A DNA stretch of 63,997 nucleotides, filler included, from Catajapyx aquilonaris (GCA_000934665.2; 2 parts of 2 records of this genome joined end to end with filler, not necessarily neighbours in it), one strand, 5' to 3'. Counted from the first letter of the whole stretch, positions 223 to 24,385 are shown. Numbers and translations are program-made. Notes: generated by a model not told the origin, from the sequence alone.

Positions 223-719
223 ATCCACTGGCATCGGGGGCTTTAGGATTCAGCCAGAATTTCAAGATGGGCGGACCCAAGTCACTGGCGGAGTTTTCTG
301 AGGCCCATTCCACCAGCCTCAACACTCCTCTATTTTCATTCAGCAACAGGTGAGTCGATCATTTACGTTTATAGGCAGGCTTTGAACCGATTCAGTAACA
401 TAGGGGACCAGATTCAGCAAAATAAAGTGAGTCATATAATAATGCTTGATTGATTGGTCGCAGCGGCAGTTTGAGCAGCGTGATTGGCTTCCTGGGATCA
501 GCCCTAGCCAGCGCTGTTGCCAACGCCTTCACTTCCGGATCCTCTTCCGGGGCTTCTTCCGGAGCCTCTCTCCTGGGAGGAGGCGACTCCGGATTCATCA
601 GGAGGCCTCTCGGAGGACTCTTCGGCGGGGGAAGAGGAAGGAGGCCATCATTCAACCGGTTCAGGGAAGCCCCTCTCTTCAGGCACAAGTTCAATCCAAG
701 ATTTCCCAACGATTATTGA
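223..719 (+). CDS. Gene A (5'-partial): Ser/Gly-rich protein with a cationic Phe/Arg/Pro tail; exons 223-349 and 464-719
   Basis: TTCAG acceptor before 223, CAG|GTGAGT donor at 350, CGCAG acceptor before 464. Phases are compatible (AG+C=Ser) and the frame runs to TGA at 717-719. Translation ..PLASGALGFSQNF..GSALASAVANAF..FIRRPLGGLFGGGRGRRPSFNRFREAPLFRHKFNPRFPNDY. The first visible exon starts in phase 1, like exon 2 of neighbouring genes, so a signal exon is inferred upstream of the window. Confidence 0.75.
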
Positions 720-1571
720 TCCACTTGACATCGTTCAATCTCTGTCGCCATGTTTGTTGATTGGCAGGAAGTTCCTTTGGCCATATCTCGCGAATTAAAG
801 ACGCTGGAAATGTATCTGGTCTCTGAACAAGTCATGAAATATCCTGGCAGGTATGCATCCCTTCTTACGATCTGTCTTTTTTCCTTTCAATGAATTGTAG
901 TTGTTGTTGTGCAATTGAAACAAATTAAATGTGGATGTAGCAATGTGGGTTGATTCGATGTAAGTGTCATATAGGAGGTGGGGTAATTTATGACAGTTTT
1001 CGAATAAATGTTCATGTACTGTTTCACCTGTCATACCCTACATACAAATAATAACCTTGAATATGCAATGCGGATGCCACCTGTTCACTTTACTATTACA
1101 CGTGACGAGCAATTTTCATCGGGTCATTGCAGGCAGCGTCAATATAGAGTAAACACTGTTCAAGTGCCCGTGGTAATGAGGCTCGTTTCCGGCCAATTAT
1201 TCAGTCAATTCCGGTTTTCACCTTATCATTCTGGTCAAGCTTCTGTGATGATTGCAGCTAGTGACCCTGAGAGAGTGACGTCAGCGAAGATGATTGACCC
1301 GAGTCATGTGCACACCTTAGCATCATTCGAACCACAGGCACCATCTTTTTGTTTGTATTTTTTTTTGTCATCTTGAAACATTCCCAGCATTTCAATTATT
1401 ATTAGTCAGGTAATTGGTAGCCTCTCCATCACGATAGCCAACCCGTCTACATGTTTTTGAGCAAAGTCGGTTTCATTTCACAACTTATTTTGAGCTCGAA
1501 TCTCCTTGAACTTTTCGAGGCTCATTTTGGGAAAGCGGTCAATTAGCGCTGGGGAACAAGTAAGCAGGGGG

Positions 1572-1609
1572 TATAAAAGGACTAGCCGATAGGCTTGGAA
1601 AAGTCATTT
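1572..1609 (+). promoter_or_regulatory. TATA box and initiator of gene B
   Basis: TATAAAA at 1572-1578 and TCATTT (TCAKTY-type Inr) at 1604-1609, about 25 nt before the ATG at 1630. Confidence 0.7.
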
Positions 1610-1629
1610 CGGAGTCAGCCTGGTCAGTC

Positions 1630-21100: not shown

Positions 21101-22441
21101 TTTTACCACGGTAAGTCACGCAAGTTGAGACGAGGGGGGGGTATGGGAAACATCCCGACTTTTTGAACCAGGTCAGGATCAGCAGTCACGTGGGTTTTTC
21201 ACCCTTTCCCTTTTCGTCCGGCCCAGGTAACAAGTGACCTGGTCAGCACCTCACAGGCACGCAACCTACATACGTGTGTCCAGTTACGTAACCGTTACTC
21301 TTTTTTTTGTCATTGTTGTGAGAGGGCAGTTCCAACCGAAAAACAAACAAGCCCGATTGACCCAGAGAAAGTGTGTGATATGCTGCCGGTTTTATCGTTG
21401 GTTGACCTAATATTGGTATCTGCAAGCCACACAACTAGTAGCGCATATATACACAGTATGATAGAGAGGGGAAAAATTTAAAAAATATGGTAATTTATTG
21501 TGTATGAAGAAACGTGTCCGTTTCCCCATGAACATCCACAATTTATCAGCAGAGGAATCTAAGCGTAAGAATGGGGGGAAACACTCACATTTGAGGAATT
21601 CCCTTATTTGGTAGCAAATTTTTTAAAAAAAGGGTTGCATGTTACCTGTAATAATCTATCGCATGATATGCATGGCTATGAAAATTATCTGATTGATCAG
21701 CAACTATTAATTATTAATAAATTATGAAGGCTCATACTTGGAACATCTGAAATAACTGGCCTTCATATATTTTACACCCTTCACACATCTGTATAGCCTA
21801 CCTTTATTATTTTTTAAAATGGCAACTGTATCGTTATCTGCTTTAGCTGAAATCACATTTTCAAATCTTTCTTTCCCGTTGAAAGTATTTGCGATGTTTT
21901 GCTCATACACTCCAAGAAATATCTACCTGAAAATAAATTGCATTTGCAGGTACATAGGAAGATGGAACAAAAATTGCAAGGAGTCAGGGCAACTAAGGCC
22001 ACAGAGACTGAATGTCTTTTCTAGTTATTTCCCCCACTTCTCTGTTCGTGTTACTCAAAATGTCCACCTGAATGACCTCTATTGTCACAAGCTTGCAATT
22101 GCAATTTACTGGGCATAATTATTTCAAGTGGGACAATAACAATAAAAAACAAATAATTTCCCCAGGTGATCTTGTGTGAGATTCCGTTCCGCCTTTTGGA
22201 GTTCAGCCTGGCTTCAATCTCGTGTCAACCTTGAACTTGCAAAAAATTTCCCACCTCCTTAGCTGCTCAGCCTCTCATATCAGCCAACCAAGCGAGGTGC
22301 CAGCCAAGGTTGGAATGATTGGCTGTACGTCACCAGAGGCGGGTTTCAAGAAAAAATTATTTTAATTTGCCAACCGTGTGTAACTCCCGATGGGACACTG
22401 TATGTATACATATAATACATGTTATGTACATCGGCTGGGAA

Positions 22442-22480
22442 TATAAGAAGGATCGTTCGGATTGGCGGCTGACTTCAGTC
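22442..22480 (+). promoter_or_regulatory. TATA and initiator of gene G
   Basis: TATAAG at 22442 and TCAGTC Inr at 22475-22480, just before the ATG at 22491. Confidence 0.65.
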
Positions 22481-22490
22481 TGAAGCAGCC

Positions 22491-24385
22491 ATGAGGGGTC
22501 TAGTGTTGGGCCTCTTGGCCATCGTGCCCATCATCGCTGCCTTACCTTACGGTACGTACTTGGGGGTGTAGTTGAAGGCCCTCTTACTTGAGAGGCGACT
22601 GCTGGGCACGTGGTCCGAACCATTTCTGGAGGAGGAGTGCCACTGTCATCTCTCAAGTACACTCTAAGAAATGTCCGGGTTAAATGTATTTATCCCGGAA
22701 GAAAGATCACTTTTGTCATGGTTATTTAACCCGGACATTTCTTAGTCATGGTTATTTAACCCGGACATTTGTTAGAGTGTAACCCGGACATTTCTTAGTC
22801 ATGGTTATTTAACCCGGACATTTCTTAGTCATGGTTATTTAACCCGGACATTTCTTAGAGTGTATACACTCTAACAAATATCCGGGTTAAATAACCATTA
22901 TTTAACCCGGACATTTCTTAGTGTAACCCGGACATTTCTTAGTCATGGTTATTTAACCCGGACCTTTCTTAGAGTGTAACCCGGACATTTCTTAGTCATG
23001 GTTATTTAACCCGGACATTTCTTAGAGTGTATACACTCTAACAAATATCCGGGTTAAATAACCATTATTTAACCCGGACATTTCTTAGTGTAACCCGGAC
23101 ATTTCTTAGTCATGGTTATTTAACCCGGACATTTCTTAGAGTGTAGAGAGGCCTTCAACTACAGCCAGTGTTCATTATTTGCAGGGTATGAACTGTATGA
23201 TGCTGCACCTTCGCTGTATGAAGGCGGTTTCGTGGAGAGGTTCAAGCGAGGAGGCGGGTATGGCGGTGGCGGTGGAGGCTACGGAGACGACGACGACGAC
23301 AGCGCCGGGGGCATCATAACCCCTGTCGGTCCAGGATACAACGGAGGAGGAATATACCACGGAGGCGGAGGAGGAGGATCATCGTACAGCGACAGCGACG
23401 CCAAATCAAAAGCCTCAGCAGGGGCTGGAGGATACGGACCAGGTCAGTAGGTCATGACACGGGGTCGACAATAAGATAAATTAACCGATTTGGATGTTTA
23501 GGTGGCGGCGGTGGTGGTGGTGGATACGGGCCAGGAGGCGGCGGAGGTTATGGTCCAGGTGGAGGTGGAGGACGTGGAGGTGGAGGTGGAGGACAGCATG
23601 GTGGCGGAGGCGGATACGGTCCTGGAGGTGGAGGCGGCGGAGGTTACGGACCTGGAGGCGGAGGTGGCGGTTATGGACCAGGTGGAGGCGGCAGTTCACA
23701 CGGGGGTGGTTACGGGCCAGGAGGCGGTGGAGCAGGAGGTGGAGGCGGTGGATACGGACCTGGTGGTGGTGGAGGCGGCCGTTACAAACCTGAAGGACAA
23801 CACGGAGGAGGCGGCGGTGGTTACGGACCAGGAGGCGGCGGTGGAGGCGGATACGGACCTGGAGGCGGCGGCGGTGGTCATAGTGGAGGCGGCGGTGGCG
23901 GGTACGGACCTGGAGGCGGCGGAGGTTATGGCCCAGGTGGTGGCGGATATGCAGGAGGCGGCGGCGGACGTTACGGACCCGGAAGATACGGACCTGGTGG
24001 TGGTGGTGGTGGAGGTAAGTTCATCAACTTTTAAACATTGAAATGAACTATATAGGGTGTAAACTTTACAATGCAATTGCGATTAGGTCACGGACGGACG
24101 AGCGACTCGAACGCCGGGTCAAAGGCTGATGCCGGAGCTGGAGACGGATACGGTGGCGGTTCAGCCGGAGCTTCCGGAGACGCTTCTGGCCACGCTGCAG
24201 GAGACTACACCAAGAGCGACAGCAACAGCGACAGTGGTGCTTTTGCCGACTCGGCCGGAAAGTCATCGTCGTTCTCCAAGTCTTCGTCGTCGTCCAGCTC
24301 CTCCAGCGGAGGCGGTAGAGGCGGGGGCGGAGGCGGCGGATGGGGAGGCGACTACGGGGGATGCAAGACTGGAACATGCTACTAG
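22491..24385 (+). CDS. Gene G: secreted Gly-rich (GGGGYGP)n protein, ~376 aa; exons 22491-22551, 23185-23442, 23502-24014, 24087-24385
   Basis: Signal MRGLVLGLLAIVPIIAALP; three phase-1 GT-AG introns; RFKR furin site; about 14 YGP units in poly-Gly; Ser/Ala/Asp blocks; C-terminal GCKTGTCY*; AATAAA at 24489-24494. Confidence 0.88.
22567..23163. mobile_element. Short outer palindromic MITE interrupted by a nested element (intron 1 of gene G)
   Basis: The left arm TGTAGTTGAAGGCCCTCTTACTTGAGA matches the reverse complement of TCTCAAG-TA-GAGAGGCCTTCAACTACA, which is reconstituted only after removing 22660-23145. Confidence 0.7.
22660..23143. mobile_element. Inner CAC-ended MITE with TA TSD and a 30-bp tandem subterminal repeat
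   Basis: TA|CACTCTAAGAAATGTCCGGGTTAAAT ... ATTTAACCCGGACATTTCTTAGAGTG|TA; internal unit CATGGTTATTTAACCCGGACATTTCTTAGT and internal GTGTATACAC end-to-end junctions. Confidence 0.8.

What the first reader, a model, noticed from the sequence alone, without database searches (positions are those of the whole stretch)
223..24385. Cluster of seven secreted, mostly Gly-rich protein genes with a shared prepro architecture: candidate undescribed silk/glue/cuticle or immune-effector system
Seen: seven genes (A+, B+, C-, D-, E-, F+, G+) in 24 kb. In C, D, E, F and G the signal peptide sits on its own exon closed by a phase-1 intron, and A's first visible exon also starts in phase 1. E, F and G have R-x-[KR]-R sites directly before the repeats. 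Each protein uses a different Gly chemistry: GGY (B), GGGH plus Pro/Arg (D), GGGGC (E), GYGP (F, G). Established: this block design with Tyr, His or Cys cross-linking residues is typical of silks, adhesives, eggshell and cuticle proteins, and Gly/His-rich peptides are also known arthropod antimicrobials (acanthoscurrin, ctenidin, holotricin-3, armadillidin). I see no Rebers-Riddiford chitin-binding motif. Inference: a co-regulated multi-component secretion. I do not recognise any member as a named gene.
Basis: partly seen in the sequence, partly recalled or inferred. Interest (0 to 1): 0.85.

Follow-up and report, generated by a model that had tools for sequence, protein, structure and literature searches.

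The report
Cluster of secreted glycine-rich protein genes
Seven neighbouring genes of an arthropod-like animal encode secreted, mostly glycine-rich, disordered proteins with no detectable relatives; they most likely build or harden an extracellular material such as cuticle, a common kind of gene in arthropods, but no RNA or protein data were available to show it.

Summary
All seven gene models (A to G, window 223-24385) assemble into stop-free reading frames with GT-AG introns. C, D, E, F and G carry the signal peptide on its own exon, closed by a phase-1 intron. E, F and G each have one R-x-[KR]-R site 18-22 residues after the signal peptide (shuffle P about 1e-5).

Five of the seven (B, D, E, F, G) are glycine-rich. 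A and C are not, and C is the weakest model. Once composition is corrected, no two of the seven proteins are detectably related. They share an architecture but cannot be shown to be one family.

None matches a Pfam family. Only F was searched widely for relatives, and only low-complexity matches came back. No RNA evidence could be obtained.

My best reading (0.5) is lineage-specific, convertase-matured structural proteins of an extracellular material, of the 'silk-like structural protein' or glycine-rich cuticle-protein kind, cross-linked through Tyr, His and Cys. A glycine-rich antimicrobial role is a live rival (0.2), mainly for the cationic D and E. Co-regulation as one 'system' is untested.

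Earlier scan notes describe other secreted low-complexity clusters in this genome, but not this one. This is a new member of a known kind, of moderate interest.

The parts
223..719 (+). Gene A, 3' part only (exons 223-349 and 464-719). Ser/Ala/Gly/Leu/Phe-rich with a basic tail and an RGRR site. It is not glycine-rich.
   Evidence: Read and assembled (126 codons, no internal stop). The first exon starts in phase 1. Maximum Gly is 20% in 80 residues and the pI is about 12. No Pfam hit.
1572..2350 (+). Gene B: TATA box near 1572, coding sequence 1630-1959 and 2023-2307, AATAAA 38 nt after the stop. 204 residues. A GGY/GYG repeat block is followed by a Ser/Ala/Asn-rich tail.
   Evidence: GGY x11, Tyr at a median spacing of 3 residues, pI 5.8. 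The 63-nt intron is in frame and stop-free. The nearest Atlas clusters are arthropod 'loricrin-like' and 'pupal cuticle protein 36-like', at scores of 0.77-0.81 only.
3014..3272 (-). Gene C, the weakest model: signal exon 3272-3221 with a phase-1 donor, and exon 3135-3014. 57 residues. It is not glycine-rich and has a G-R-R-R site.
   Evidence: A TATA-like element lies 49 nt upstream and ATTAAA lies 88 nt after the stop. An out-of-frame ATG sits 10 nt upstream. No Pfam hit.
5010..5900 (-). Gene D: TATA box near 5898, signal exon 5837-5771 (phase 1), exon 5605-5010. 220 residues. An acidic N-terminal piece ends in G-R-R. It is followed by CCRC, a (G)GGH repeat block and a Pro/Arg-rich tail.
   Evidence: GGGH x10, PP x10, PRP x3, 72% Gly in the best 80 residues, pI about 10.
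7599..9112 (-). Gene E: TATA box near 9111, signal exon 9007-8923 (phase 1), exon 8062-7599. 182 residues. The RLKR site is at 8021-8010. It has Gly/Tyr/His and GGGGC blocks and a Ser-rich tail ending in G-R-R-R.
   Evidence: Eight Cys residues form four C-x4-C spacings. pI is 8.2 after RLKR.
13049..18113 (+). Gene F, five exons (13123-13183, 13489-13535, 14844-15187, 16231-17901, 17963-18113). 757 residues. The RVRR site is at 14847-14858.
   Evidence: The signal exon was found by scan. All four introns are GT-AG with compatible phases (1, 0, 2, 2), giving one stop-free frame. A TATA-like element lies 74 nt upstream.
16259..17098 (+). Inside F: five units of 54-60 residues. Each starts with a conserved 20-residue small-residue motif (GVGSAISSAATGITGGIAQA type).
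   Evidence: Tandem period of 168 nt. The alignment has 14 invariant columns. pN/pS is 0-0.47 in 10 of 10 unit pairs, with synonymous difference 0.29-0.87. No Pfam or PDB match. The single-sequence AlphaFold model shows helices, but at mean pLDDT 43.7.
17501..17848 (+). Inside F: the GYGP/SGGYGP repeat block. A 16-residue motif (GGGGLGFRTGDAGGGY) at 17797-17844 is also present at 14963-15010.
   Evidence: GYGP x6 and 47% Gly in the best 80 residues. The nucleotide self-match is 87.5% over 48 nt.
22441..24495 (+). Gene G: TATA-like element near 22441, exons 22491-22551, 23185-23442, 23502-24014 and 24087-24385, all three introns in phase 1. The RFKR site is at 23238-23249. 376 residues, 50% Gly, with (G)nYGPG repeats, a Ser/Asp-rich tail and a C-terminal C-x4-C.
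   Evidence: AATAAA lies 104 nt after the stop. GYGP x12 with Tyr at a median spacing of 10 residues.

Best explanation
The cluster encodes lineage-specific, intrinsically disordered, secreted proteins that serve as building blocks or hardeners of an extracellular material. That material is most likely cuticle or a cuticle-derived structure, less likely an adhesive, silk-like or egg or spermatophore coat.

Proposed mechanism:
1. Each gene is driven by its own TATA-type promoter (shown in the sequence).
2. The signal peptide takes the protein into the secretory pathway (inferred from the sequence).
3. In E, F and G, and perhaps at G-R-R in D, a furin-type convertase removes a propeptide of about 20 residues. 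Until then the propeptide keeps the sticky glycine-rich part from assembling (inferred, by analogy with nematode cuticle collagens).
4. Outside the cell the Gly spacers give disorder and phase separation. Regularly spaced Tyr (B, F, G), His (D, E) and Cys (E, D) provide dityrosine or quinone, metal or quinone-His, and disulfide cross-links respectively (inferred from composition and from published work on GGY cuticle proteins).

Whether the seven genes act together in one material is not shown.
For: - B, D, E, F and G have a signal-type N-terminus and no later membrane-like segment (maximum KD(19) is 1.53 or less). Each has 47-76% Gly in its best 80-residue window. They therefore meet the published sequence definition of silk-like structural proteins (PMC4944945, passages). 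That paper found most such proteins to be lineage-restricted parts of biological materials.
- B's GGY repeats match the motif of Bombyx CPG cuticle proteins. Those number 29 genes and are expressed in moulting epidermis, and the Tyr of their GGY repeats can be cross-linked by tyrosinase (PMC2542385, passages).
- B's nearest Atlas clusters are arthropod cuticle- or loricrin-like, at weak scores of 0.77-0.81.
- B, F and G are mildly acidic (pI 5.8-6.3). F and G are large (716 and 334 residues after the convertase site). Neither feature fits cationic peptides.
- Tyr is regularly spaced, with median gaps of 3, 7 and 10 residues.
- The promoters show no paired kappaB and GATA motifs.
- N-terminal furin-type cleavage of structural cuticle proteins has a precedent in nematode collagens cut by BLI-4 (PMC10538796, abstract).
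- F is a real, constrained coding sequence: pN/pS is below 0.5 in 10 of 10 pairs of its repeat units.
Against: - There is no expression, proteomic or comparative evidence of any kind.
- No chitin-binding domain was found (R&R, CBM14), nor the GYR or YLP motifs.
- A signal peptide, then a propeptide, then a Gly-rich region is the layout a review gives for glycine-rich antimicrobial peptides (PMC11772090, passages).
- D and E are cationic (pI about 10 and 8.2), have acidic pro-pieces, and E ends in G-R-R-R, an amidation-type signal.
- Bombyx CPGs are usually basic (pI above 8, PMC2542385), unlike B, F and G.
- My one literature search for furin-processed glycine-rich arthropod cuticle proteins found none. 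Of the 6 papers listed, 4 concern C. elegans and 2 concern plants.
- A and C do not fit the glycine-rich pattern.
Confidence: 0.5

Rival explanations
1. Some or all of the genes, above all D and E and perhaps A and C, encode glycine-rich (Gly/His, Gly/Tyr) antimicrobial or other bioactive peptides. A convertase would release these from prepro-precursors, and some would be amidated at the C-terminus.
For: - The prepro layout has one R-x-[KR]-R site 18-22 residues after the signal peptide in E, F and G. This matches the layout stated for glycine-rich antimicrobial peptides (PMC11772090, passages).
- D has an acidic pro-piece (charge -2) and a strongly cationic mature part (+11, pI 10.2). E has pI 8.2.
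- D combines a Gly/His block with a Pro/Arg block (PRP x3). This recalls the Gly-rich plus Pro/Arg-rich make-up of hyastatin (PMC11772090, passages).
- G-R-R(-R) sites occur in A, C, D and at the C-terminus of E.
- Armadillidins are GGGX-repeat peptides restricted to one crustacean lineage, so orphan status is expected for this class (PMC7017220, passages).
- Phase-1 introns after the signal peptide also occur in insect antimicrobial-peptide genes (PMC2853521, passages).
Against: - The mature sizes are 136-716 residues, against about 50 for armadillidins (PMC7017220).
- B, F and G are mildly acidic.
- Arg content is 1.5-6.6% in B and D to G, against more than 10% in most armadillidins.
- The promoters have no paired kappaB and GATA motifs. 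Only E has kappaB-like sites.
- F carries a 280-residue non-Gly-rich repeat domain under purifying selection, which no known glycine-rich antimicrobial peptide has.
Confidence: 0.2
2. There is no 'system'. The seven genes are independently evolved, independently regulated secreted low-complexity genes that merely lie side by side. They may serve different tissues or materials, and their shared features follow from general rules for secreted and Gly-rich genes.
For: - No pair of the seven proteins is similar once composition is corrected (best E 0.10). The only nucleotide match that links coding regions 300 bp or more apart lies inside F.
- The promoters share no motif beyond TATA-like boxes.
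- Phase-1 introns cluster at signal-peptide cleavage sites in general (PMC1626468, abstract). Gly codons split as G|GN fit the splice consensus (read).
- Charge and size differ widely between the genes.
- Earlier scan notes describe other secreted low-complexity clusters elsewhere in this genome (e1-7506546 and e1-7595264, not checked by me).
Against: - All glycine-rich frames of the 64-kb window lie within its first 24.4 kb.
- The R-x-[KR]-R site at the same distance from the signal peptide in three proteins is far beyond chance (P about 1e-5).
- C-x4-C loops recur in E, F and G. The shuffle P is 0.016 for F and 0.0056 for G.
- All six complete genes have TATA-like promoters.
Confidence: 0.2
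3. Some models, chiefly C and the partial A, are not real genes but chance frames. The glycine-rich frames could also be non-coding GGN-type repeats.
For: - No RNA evidence exists and no homologues were found.
- C is only 57 residues and has an upstream out-of-frame ATG.
- Low-complexity GGN repeats are open in several frames and on both strands.
Against: - Every model combines a TATA-like box, an ATG, a hydrophobic signal sequence, GT-AG introns with matching phases, a stop-free frame and a polyadenylation signal.
- F's five exons join through four introns into one frame, and its repeat units show pN/pS below 0.5 in 10 of 10 pairs.
- Outside the cluster the same scan finds only 1 candidate signal exon in about 40 kb, and it has no TATA.
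Confidence: 0.05

Closest known systems
Silk-like structural proteins (SLSPs; McDougall et al. 2016, PMC4944945)
   Same: They have a signal peptide, no membrane segment and a domain with at least 25% Gly in 80 residues. They are mostly lineage-restricted, arose independently and are used in extracellular materials. B, D, E, F and G meet the sequence definition.
   Different: SLSP is a class defined by composition, not a homologous family, and it predicts no particular material. A and C do not qualify. The shared convertase propeptide is not part of the definition.
Insect glycine-rich cuticular proteins (Bombyx CPG family, e.g. BmorCPG1; PMC2542385)
   Same: They are secreted, lack an R&R domain and have GGY or GG repeats. 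The Tyr of GGY serves cross-linking. There are many genes, expressed from strong stage-specific promoters. B has GGY x11.
   Different: No sequence relationship was shown. CPGs are usually basic (pI above 8), while B, F and G have pI about 6. No convertase propeptide is described for CPGs in the passages I read. Expression at moult is untested here.
Glycine-rich antimicrobial peptides of arthropods (armadillidins PMC7017220; acanthoscurrin, ctenidin, hyastatin, attacin and gloverin as listed in PMC11772090)
   Same: The layout is signal peptide, propeptide, then Gly-rich repeats (GGGX, GGY). They are lineage-restricted. D and E are cationic and His-rich. E ends in an amidation-type G-R-R-R.
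   Different: The proteins here are 3-14 times longer than armadillidins. B, F and G are acidic. Arg content is low. No activity or induction data exist. No sequence relationship was tested directly, because none of those sequences was available to me.
Nematode cuticle collagens processed by the convertase BLI-4 (PMC10538796)
   Same: They are Gly-rich cuticle structural proteins whose N-terminal piece is removed at a furin-type dibasic site before or during matrix assembly. This is the mechanism I propose for E, F and G.
   Different: There are no Gly-X-Y collagen repeats here and no collagen Pfam hit. The phylum is different. This is an analogy of mechanism only.
[quoted passage not shown]
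   Same: They are secreted adhesives built from blocks of small residues (Gly/Ala/Ser/Thr) alternating with charged blocks. F's five units have that alternation. Tick GRPs use GGY/GYG motifs and phase-separate.
   Different: No sequence comparison was possible. F's 20-residue motif matches nothing in Pfam or the PDB. The lineage of this genome and any adhesive organ are unknown.

Membership tests
Silk-like structural proteins (SilkSlider definition, PMC4944945) | N-terminal signal peptide | tested here: met
   The hydrophobic core scores KD(10) 2.5-3.3 within the first 20 residues of B, C, D, E, F and G. This is a heuristic only, because SignalP was not available. A's start lies outside the window.
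Silk-like structural proteins (SilkSlider definition, PMC4944945) | No transmembrane domain after the signal peptide | tested here: met
   Maximum KD over 19 residues in the post-signal parts is 1.53 or less. This is a heuristic, because TMHMM was not available.
Silk-like structural proteins (SilkSlider definition, PMC4944945) | At least 25% Gly within an 80-residue window | tested here: met
   Met by 5 of 7: B 0.47, D 0.72, E 0.55, F 0.47, G 0.76. Not met by A (0.20) or C (0.05).
CPR cuticular proteins (Rebers-Riddiford consensus, Pfam Chitin_bind_4) | R&R chitin-binding domain | tested here: not met
   No Pfam family at E up to 0.1-1 in any of the 14 coding-exon translations scanned, nor in B read with its intron retained. 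The exceptions are a sub-threshold DUF6260 match in F.
GYR / YLP motif proteins (PF02756, PF02757; PMC2932725) | Match to the GYR or YLP motif models | tested here: not met
   Neither was reported at E up to 0.1-1. Short motif models are insensitive, so this is weak evidence.
Insect CPG (glycine-rich cuticular proteins) | GGY / GG repeats in a secreted protein without R&R | tested here: met
   B has GGY x11, F x11 and G x15. This is a compositional criterion only.
Insect CPG (glycine-rich cuticular proteins) | Expression in epidermis at the moult and presence in cuticle | not testable with these tools
Glycine-rich antimicrobial peptides | Signal peptide, then propeptide, then Gly-rich region (PMC11772090) | tested here: met
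   E, F and G have R-x-[KR]-R 18-22 residues after the signal peptide. D has only G-R-R, and B has no propeptide site.
Glycine-rich antimicrobial peptides | Small, cationic mature peptide | tested here: inconclusive
   D (170-198 residues, pI about 10) and E (136 residues, pI 8.2) are cationic but long. B, F and G are acidic (pI 5.8-6.3), and F and G are 716 and 334 residues.
Glycine-rich antimicrobial peptides | Antimicrobial activity or immune induction | not testable with these tools
   This needs bench work or RNA data. The promoters show no paired kappaB and GATA motifs, which is only a weak hint.
Armadillidins (PMC7017220) | Mature peptide of about 50 residues with 3-7 GGGX motifs and more than 10% Arg | tested here: not met
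   Lengths are 136-716 residues and Arg is 1.5-6.6% in the Gly-rich members.
Collagens (including nematode cuticle collagens) | Gly-X-Y triple-helix repeats | tested here: not met
   No collagen Pfam hit. The repeats are GGY, GGGH, GGGGC and GYGP.
Spidroins / silk fibroins | Conserved terminal domains and a very large repetitive core | tested here: not met
   No Pfam hit of any kind. The largest protein is 757 residues. The GYGPG motif in G resembles a spider-silk motif (my recollection), in composition only.

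The most novel reading that the evidence does not exclude
The cluster is the toolkit for one undescribed pancrustacean material, such as a hardened 'tool' cuticle, an adhesive, or a stalk or coat secretion. In this reading, non-homologous disordered proteins each bring a different cross-linking chemistry: Tyr in B, F and G; His in D; Cys and His in E. 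A shared convertase-removed propeptide acts as a safety catch. It blocks phase separation or assembly until secretion. F's unique five-fold small-residue motif would be the organising scaffold.
Probability: 0.15. Interest if true: 0.65.

Novelty: new member of a known kind. Interest (0 to 1): 0.33.

Why it matters
If they are real and expressed, these genes add a set of orphan glycine-rich secreted proteins from an under-sampled arthropod lineage. They have two features worth a bench test.

The first is a convertase site at a fixed distance from the signal peptide in three proteins that are otherwise unrelated. This suggests regulated maturation of self-assembling proteins.

The second is a constrained 20-residue small-residue motif, repeated five times in F, that has no match in Pfam or the PDB.

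For materials biology they would be compact natural examples of Tyr-, His- and Cys-based 'sticker and spacer' designs. As it stands the finding is a good annotation of a common kind of arthropod gene cluster. It does not point to a new principle.

Tried and rejected
**RNA evidence**
- The look-up of sequencing runs on 14800-24400 listed no RNA holder. It listed one run of unknown kind (X1, 32 million letters) holding 0.40 of the sampled words.
Nothing was laid, so the 0.40 share is not evidence of expression.

**Whole genome**
- None is held for this window.

**Homologues**
- F's main exon found none in the word-index search.
- In the HMMER search of 1.84 billion representatives, 8 proteins reached E 0.001 or better. 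All 8 matched only F's Gly/Tyr-rich part (query residues 368-517). The 5 of 8 that I read were unrelated low-complexity proteins.
- The Atlas gave nothing for F residues 1-400. For B it gave only weak arthropod leads.
- The PDB gave only chance rows.
- I spent two homologue searches on the neighbouring ionotropic-receptor-like frame to place the lineage. The first used the 'longer' length band, which was a poor choice on my part. Both found nothing. The databases therefore seem to lack close relatives, which weakens every 'no homologue' statement here.

**Metagenome loci**
- F found none.
- D gave one hit, L001. It is a GC-rich bacterial-type contig with a Pro/Ala linker, a low-complexity chance match.

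**Earlier scan findings**
- Nothing was noted near this place and no look-alike stretches were found. The sequence look-up with G matched only phage gp38 notes.

**Structure**
- The single-sequence AlphaFold model of F's repeat domain had mean pLDDT 43.7. That was too low to use, so I did no fold search.

**Other**
- The promoter motif scan found nothing shared beyond TATA-like boxes.
- No tRNA genes and no Rfam families lie in the window.
- I considered a common descent of all seven genes and rejected it as not shown.
- I considered reading 14829-15191 as a separate eighth gene. I rejected this because its splice phases join it to F's exons on both sides.

Full report
**What is there.** The window is eukaryotic. 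No whole genome is held for it. Earlier notes of this scan on other pieces of the same genome call it an arthropod, variously 'crustacean-type' or 'springtail-like'. I did not check that.

All 7 of 7 give reading frames without internal stops, and every intron is GT-AG.
- A is partial: 223-349 and 464-719.
- B is 1630-1959 and 2023-2307.
- C (minus strand) is 3272-3221 and 3135-3014.
- D (minus) is 5837-5771 and 5605-5010.
- E (minus) is 9007-8923 and 8062-7599.
- F has five exons: 13123-13183, 13489-13535, 14844-15187, 16231-17901 and 17963-18113.
- G has four: 22491-22551, 23185-23442, 23502-24014 and 24087-24385.

At first I took the frame at 14829-15191 for an eighth gene. A scan then found a signal-peptide exon at 13123, and the splice phases (1, 0, 2, 2) join all five pieces into one 757-codon frame.

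**Is it more than chance?** I scanned the whole 64 kb on both strands for an ATG followed by a hydrophobic core and a strong splice donor. Of 72 hydrophobic ATG frames, 9 passed. Six of the 9 are B to G, and all six have a TATA-like element 49-104 nt upstream. The three others have none.

C, D, E, F and G have a phase-1 donor right after the signal peptide. A's first visible exon starts in phase 1. A polyadenylation signal follows the stop within 6-104 nt in 7 of 7 genes. Glycine-rich frames occur only between 1564 and 24400.

E, F and G each have exactly one R-x-[KR]-R site (RLKR, RVRR, RFKR), starting 20, 18 and 22 residues after the signal peptide. In shuffles of each protein, the chance that three or more of six show this is 1.2e-5.

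The claimed chemistries are there: GGY x11 in B; GGGH x10 with PP x10 and PRP x3 in D; GGGGC x4 in E; GYGP x6 in F and x12 in G.

Two further shared details came up:
- All Cys residues of F and G, and most of E, sit in C-x4-C or C-x3-C pairs. The shuffle P for C-x4-C is 0.016 in F and 0.0056 in G.
- G-R-R(-R) sites occur in A, C, D and at the very end of E.

**Limits of the observation.**
- A (at most 20% Gly in 80 residues) and C (5%) are not glycine-rich.
- C is only 57 residues and has an out-of-frame ATG 10 nt upstream.
- No junction is backed by RNA. The run search listed no RNA holder, only one run of unknown kind.
- The best intrinsic evidence that a gene is truly translated comes from F. 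Its five 54-60-residue units each begin with a 20-residue motif (GVGSAISSAATGITGGIAQA type) with 14 invariant positions. Between units, synonymous sites differ by 0.29-0.87, while pN/pS is 0-0.47 in 10 of 10 pairs.

**Are the genes related?** With composition-corrected BLASTP no pair of the seven proteins reaches E below 0.1. Without the correction they match only through glycine content. At the DNA level, the only match that links coding regions 300 bp or more apart lies inside F: a 16-residue motif coded at 14963-15010 and again at 17797-17844. The cluster therefore shares an architecture, but descent from a common ancestor cannot be shown.

Part of that architecture is generic:
- Phase-1 introns are over-represented at signal-peptide cleavage sites in general (PMC1626468, abstract).
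- They are also seen after the signal peptide in insect antimicrobial-peptide genes (PMC2853521, passages).
- In these genes the split codons are mostly G|GN glycine codons, which fit the splice consensus.

The fixed position of the convertase site and the C-x4-C pairs are not generic.

**Comparison with what is known.**
- No Pfam family matches any coding exon apart from the short signal and propeptide exons, which were not scanned. That covers 14 exon translations, plus B read with its intron retained. The only row is a sub-threshold DUF6260 match in F. So there is no R&R, CBM14, collagen, spidroin, GYR or YLP match.
- F's main exon has no relatives in the word-index search.
- Among 1.84 billion representatives, 8 proteins reached E 0.001 or better. 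All matched only F's Gly/Tyr-rich part, and the five I read are unrelated low-complexity proteins.
- The Atlas gave nothing for F. For B it gave only weak arthropod leads: 'hypothetical', 'loricrin-like' and 'pupal cuticle protein 36-like', at scores of 0.77-0.81.
- The PDB, metagenome loci and the scan's own index gave nothing usable.
- The neighbouring ionotropic-receptor-like gene also found no relatives. The databases therefore seem poor in close relatives of this genome, and 'orphan' must be read with that in mind.
- A, C, D, E and G were not searched for homologues beyond Pfam.

**What it most likely is.** B, D, E, F and G meet the published sequence definition of silk-like structural proteins: a signal peptide, no membrane segment, and at least 25% Gly in 80 residues (PMC4944945, passages). 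That class was found to be mostly lineage-restricted and used in extracellular materials.

In arthropods the commonest such proteins are cuticular. Bombyx has 29 glycine-rich CPG genes expressed in moulting epidermis, and the Tyr of their GGY repeats can be cross-linked by tyrosinase (PMC2542385, passages).

B, F and G have regularly spaced Tyr (median gaps 3, 7 and 10) and a mildly acidic charge. F and G are also large. All this fits structural proteins better than cationic peptides. I therefore favour extracellular material proteins at 0.5. In this reading a furin-type convertase removes a short propeptide in E, F and G. Nematode cuticle collagens cut by BLI-4 show the same step (PMC10538796, abstract). 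Tyr, His and Cys would then supply the cross-links. Every step after 'secreted' is inference.

**Rivals.**
- A review gives signal peptide, propeptide and Gly-rich region as the usual layout of glycine-rich antimicrobial peptides (PMC11772090, passages). D (mature charge about +11, acidic pro-piece, Gly/His block plus Pro/Arg block) and E (pI 8.2, ending in G-R-R-R) fit that layout reasonably well. Against this reading, all the proteins are far longer than armadillidins, which have about 50 residues and more than 10% Arg (PMC7017220, passages). The promoters also lack paired kappaB and GATA motifs. I give it 0.2, mainly for D and E.
- The genes may be mere neighbours without a common task (0.2). 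No homology and no shared promoter motif speak for this. The fixed convertase position and the confinement of all Gly-rich frames to 24 kb speak against it.
- The models may not be genes at all. This is unlikely (0.05), though possible for C.

**Verdict.** The 'co-regulated system' is untested.

This kind of thing, a cluster of orphan secreted glycine-rich genes, is common in arthropods. Earlier notes report other secreted low-complexity clusters elsewhere in this same genome (e1-7506546 and e1-7595264, unchecked). I rate it a new member of a known kind with interest about 0.33.

The most novel reading still open is a single multi-chemistry material toolkit, with a convertase 'safety catch' and F as scaffold. 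I put its probability at about 0.15.

Noticed in passing
window 22658-23145 (intron 1 of gene G): The intron holds an array of short repeats: 30- and 53-nt units, and a 167-nt unit present twice at 99% identity. The units include inverted copies, so it looks like a MITE-type insertion that inflates this intron to 633 nt.
   Followed up: partly
window 14400-14620 (intron 2 of gene F): A roughly 220-nt element has long inverted arms, with 17-nt units at 14415-14451 mirrored at 14575-14611. It is probably another small transposon.
   Followed up: no
window 12505-12641 and 13703-13775: Two long trinucleotide microsatellites: (ATG)n/(ATT)n just upstream of gene F, and (ATA)n inside its second intron.
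   Followed up: no
window 1960-2022 (intron of gene B): The 63-nt intron is in frame and free of stops. If retained, it would add 21 residues without breaking the protein, because the frame 1564-2307 is continuous.
   Followed up: no
window 27155-29372 (+): Two long frames look like a divergent ionotropic glutamate-receptor-type (IR-like) gene. The Pfam matches are Lig_chan-Glu_bd at E 4.9e-5 and Lig_chan at 0.056, both below the curated cut-offs. No relatives turned up in two word-index searches.
   Followed up: partly
window 24851-25513 (+): A 220-residue Cys-rich frame just downstream of G has a weak RanBP2-type zinc-ribbon match (E 9e-4, below the cut-off).
   Followed up: no
window 24449, 32716, 37315, 47116, 63510; N runs at 31972-32071 and 36541-36697: Single N letters sit inside long G or C homopolymer runs, and there are three longer N runs. 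These are assembly gaps or uncertain bases. One lies in G's 3' untranslated region.
   Followed up: no
genes A, C, D, E (window 223-9007): G-R-R(-R) sites recur: GRGRR in A, GRRR in C, GRR twice in D, and GRRR at the C-terminus of E. This is the usual signal for dibasic cleavage followed by C-terminal amidation, which hints that these four may yield processed peptides. I ran no statistical test on this.
   Followed up: partly
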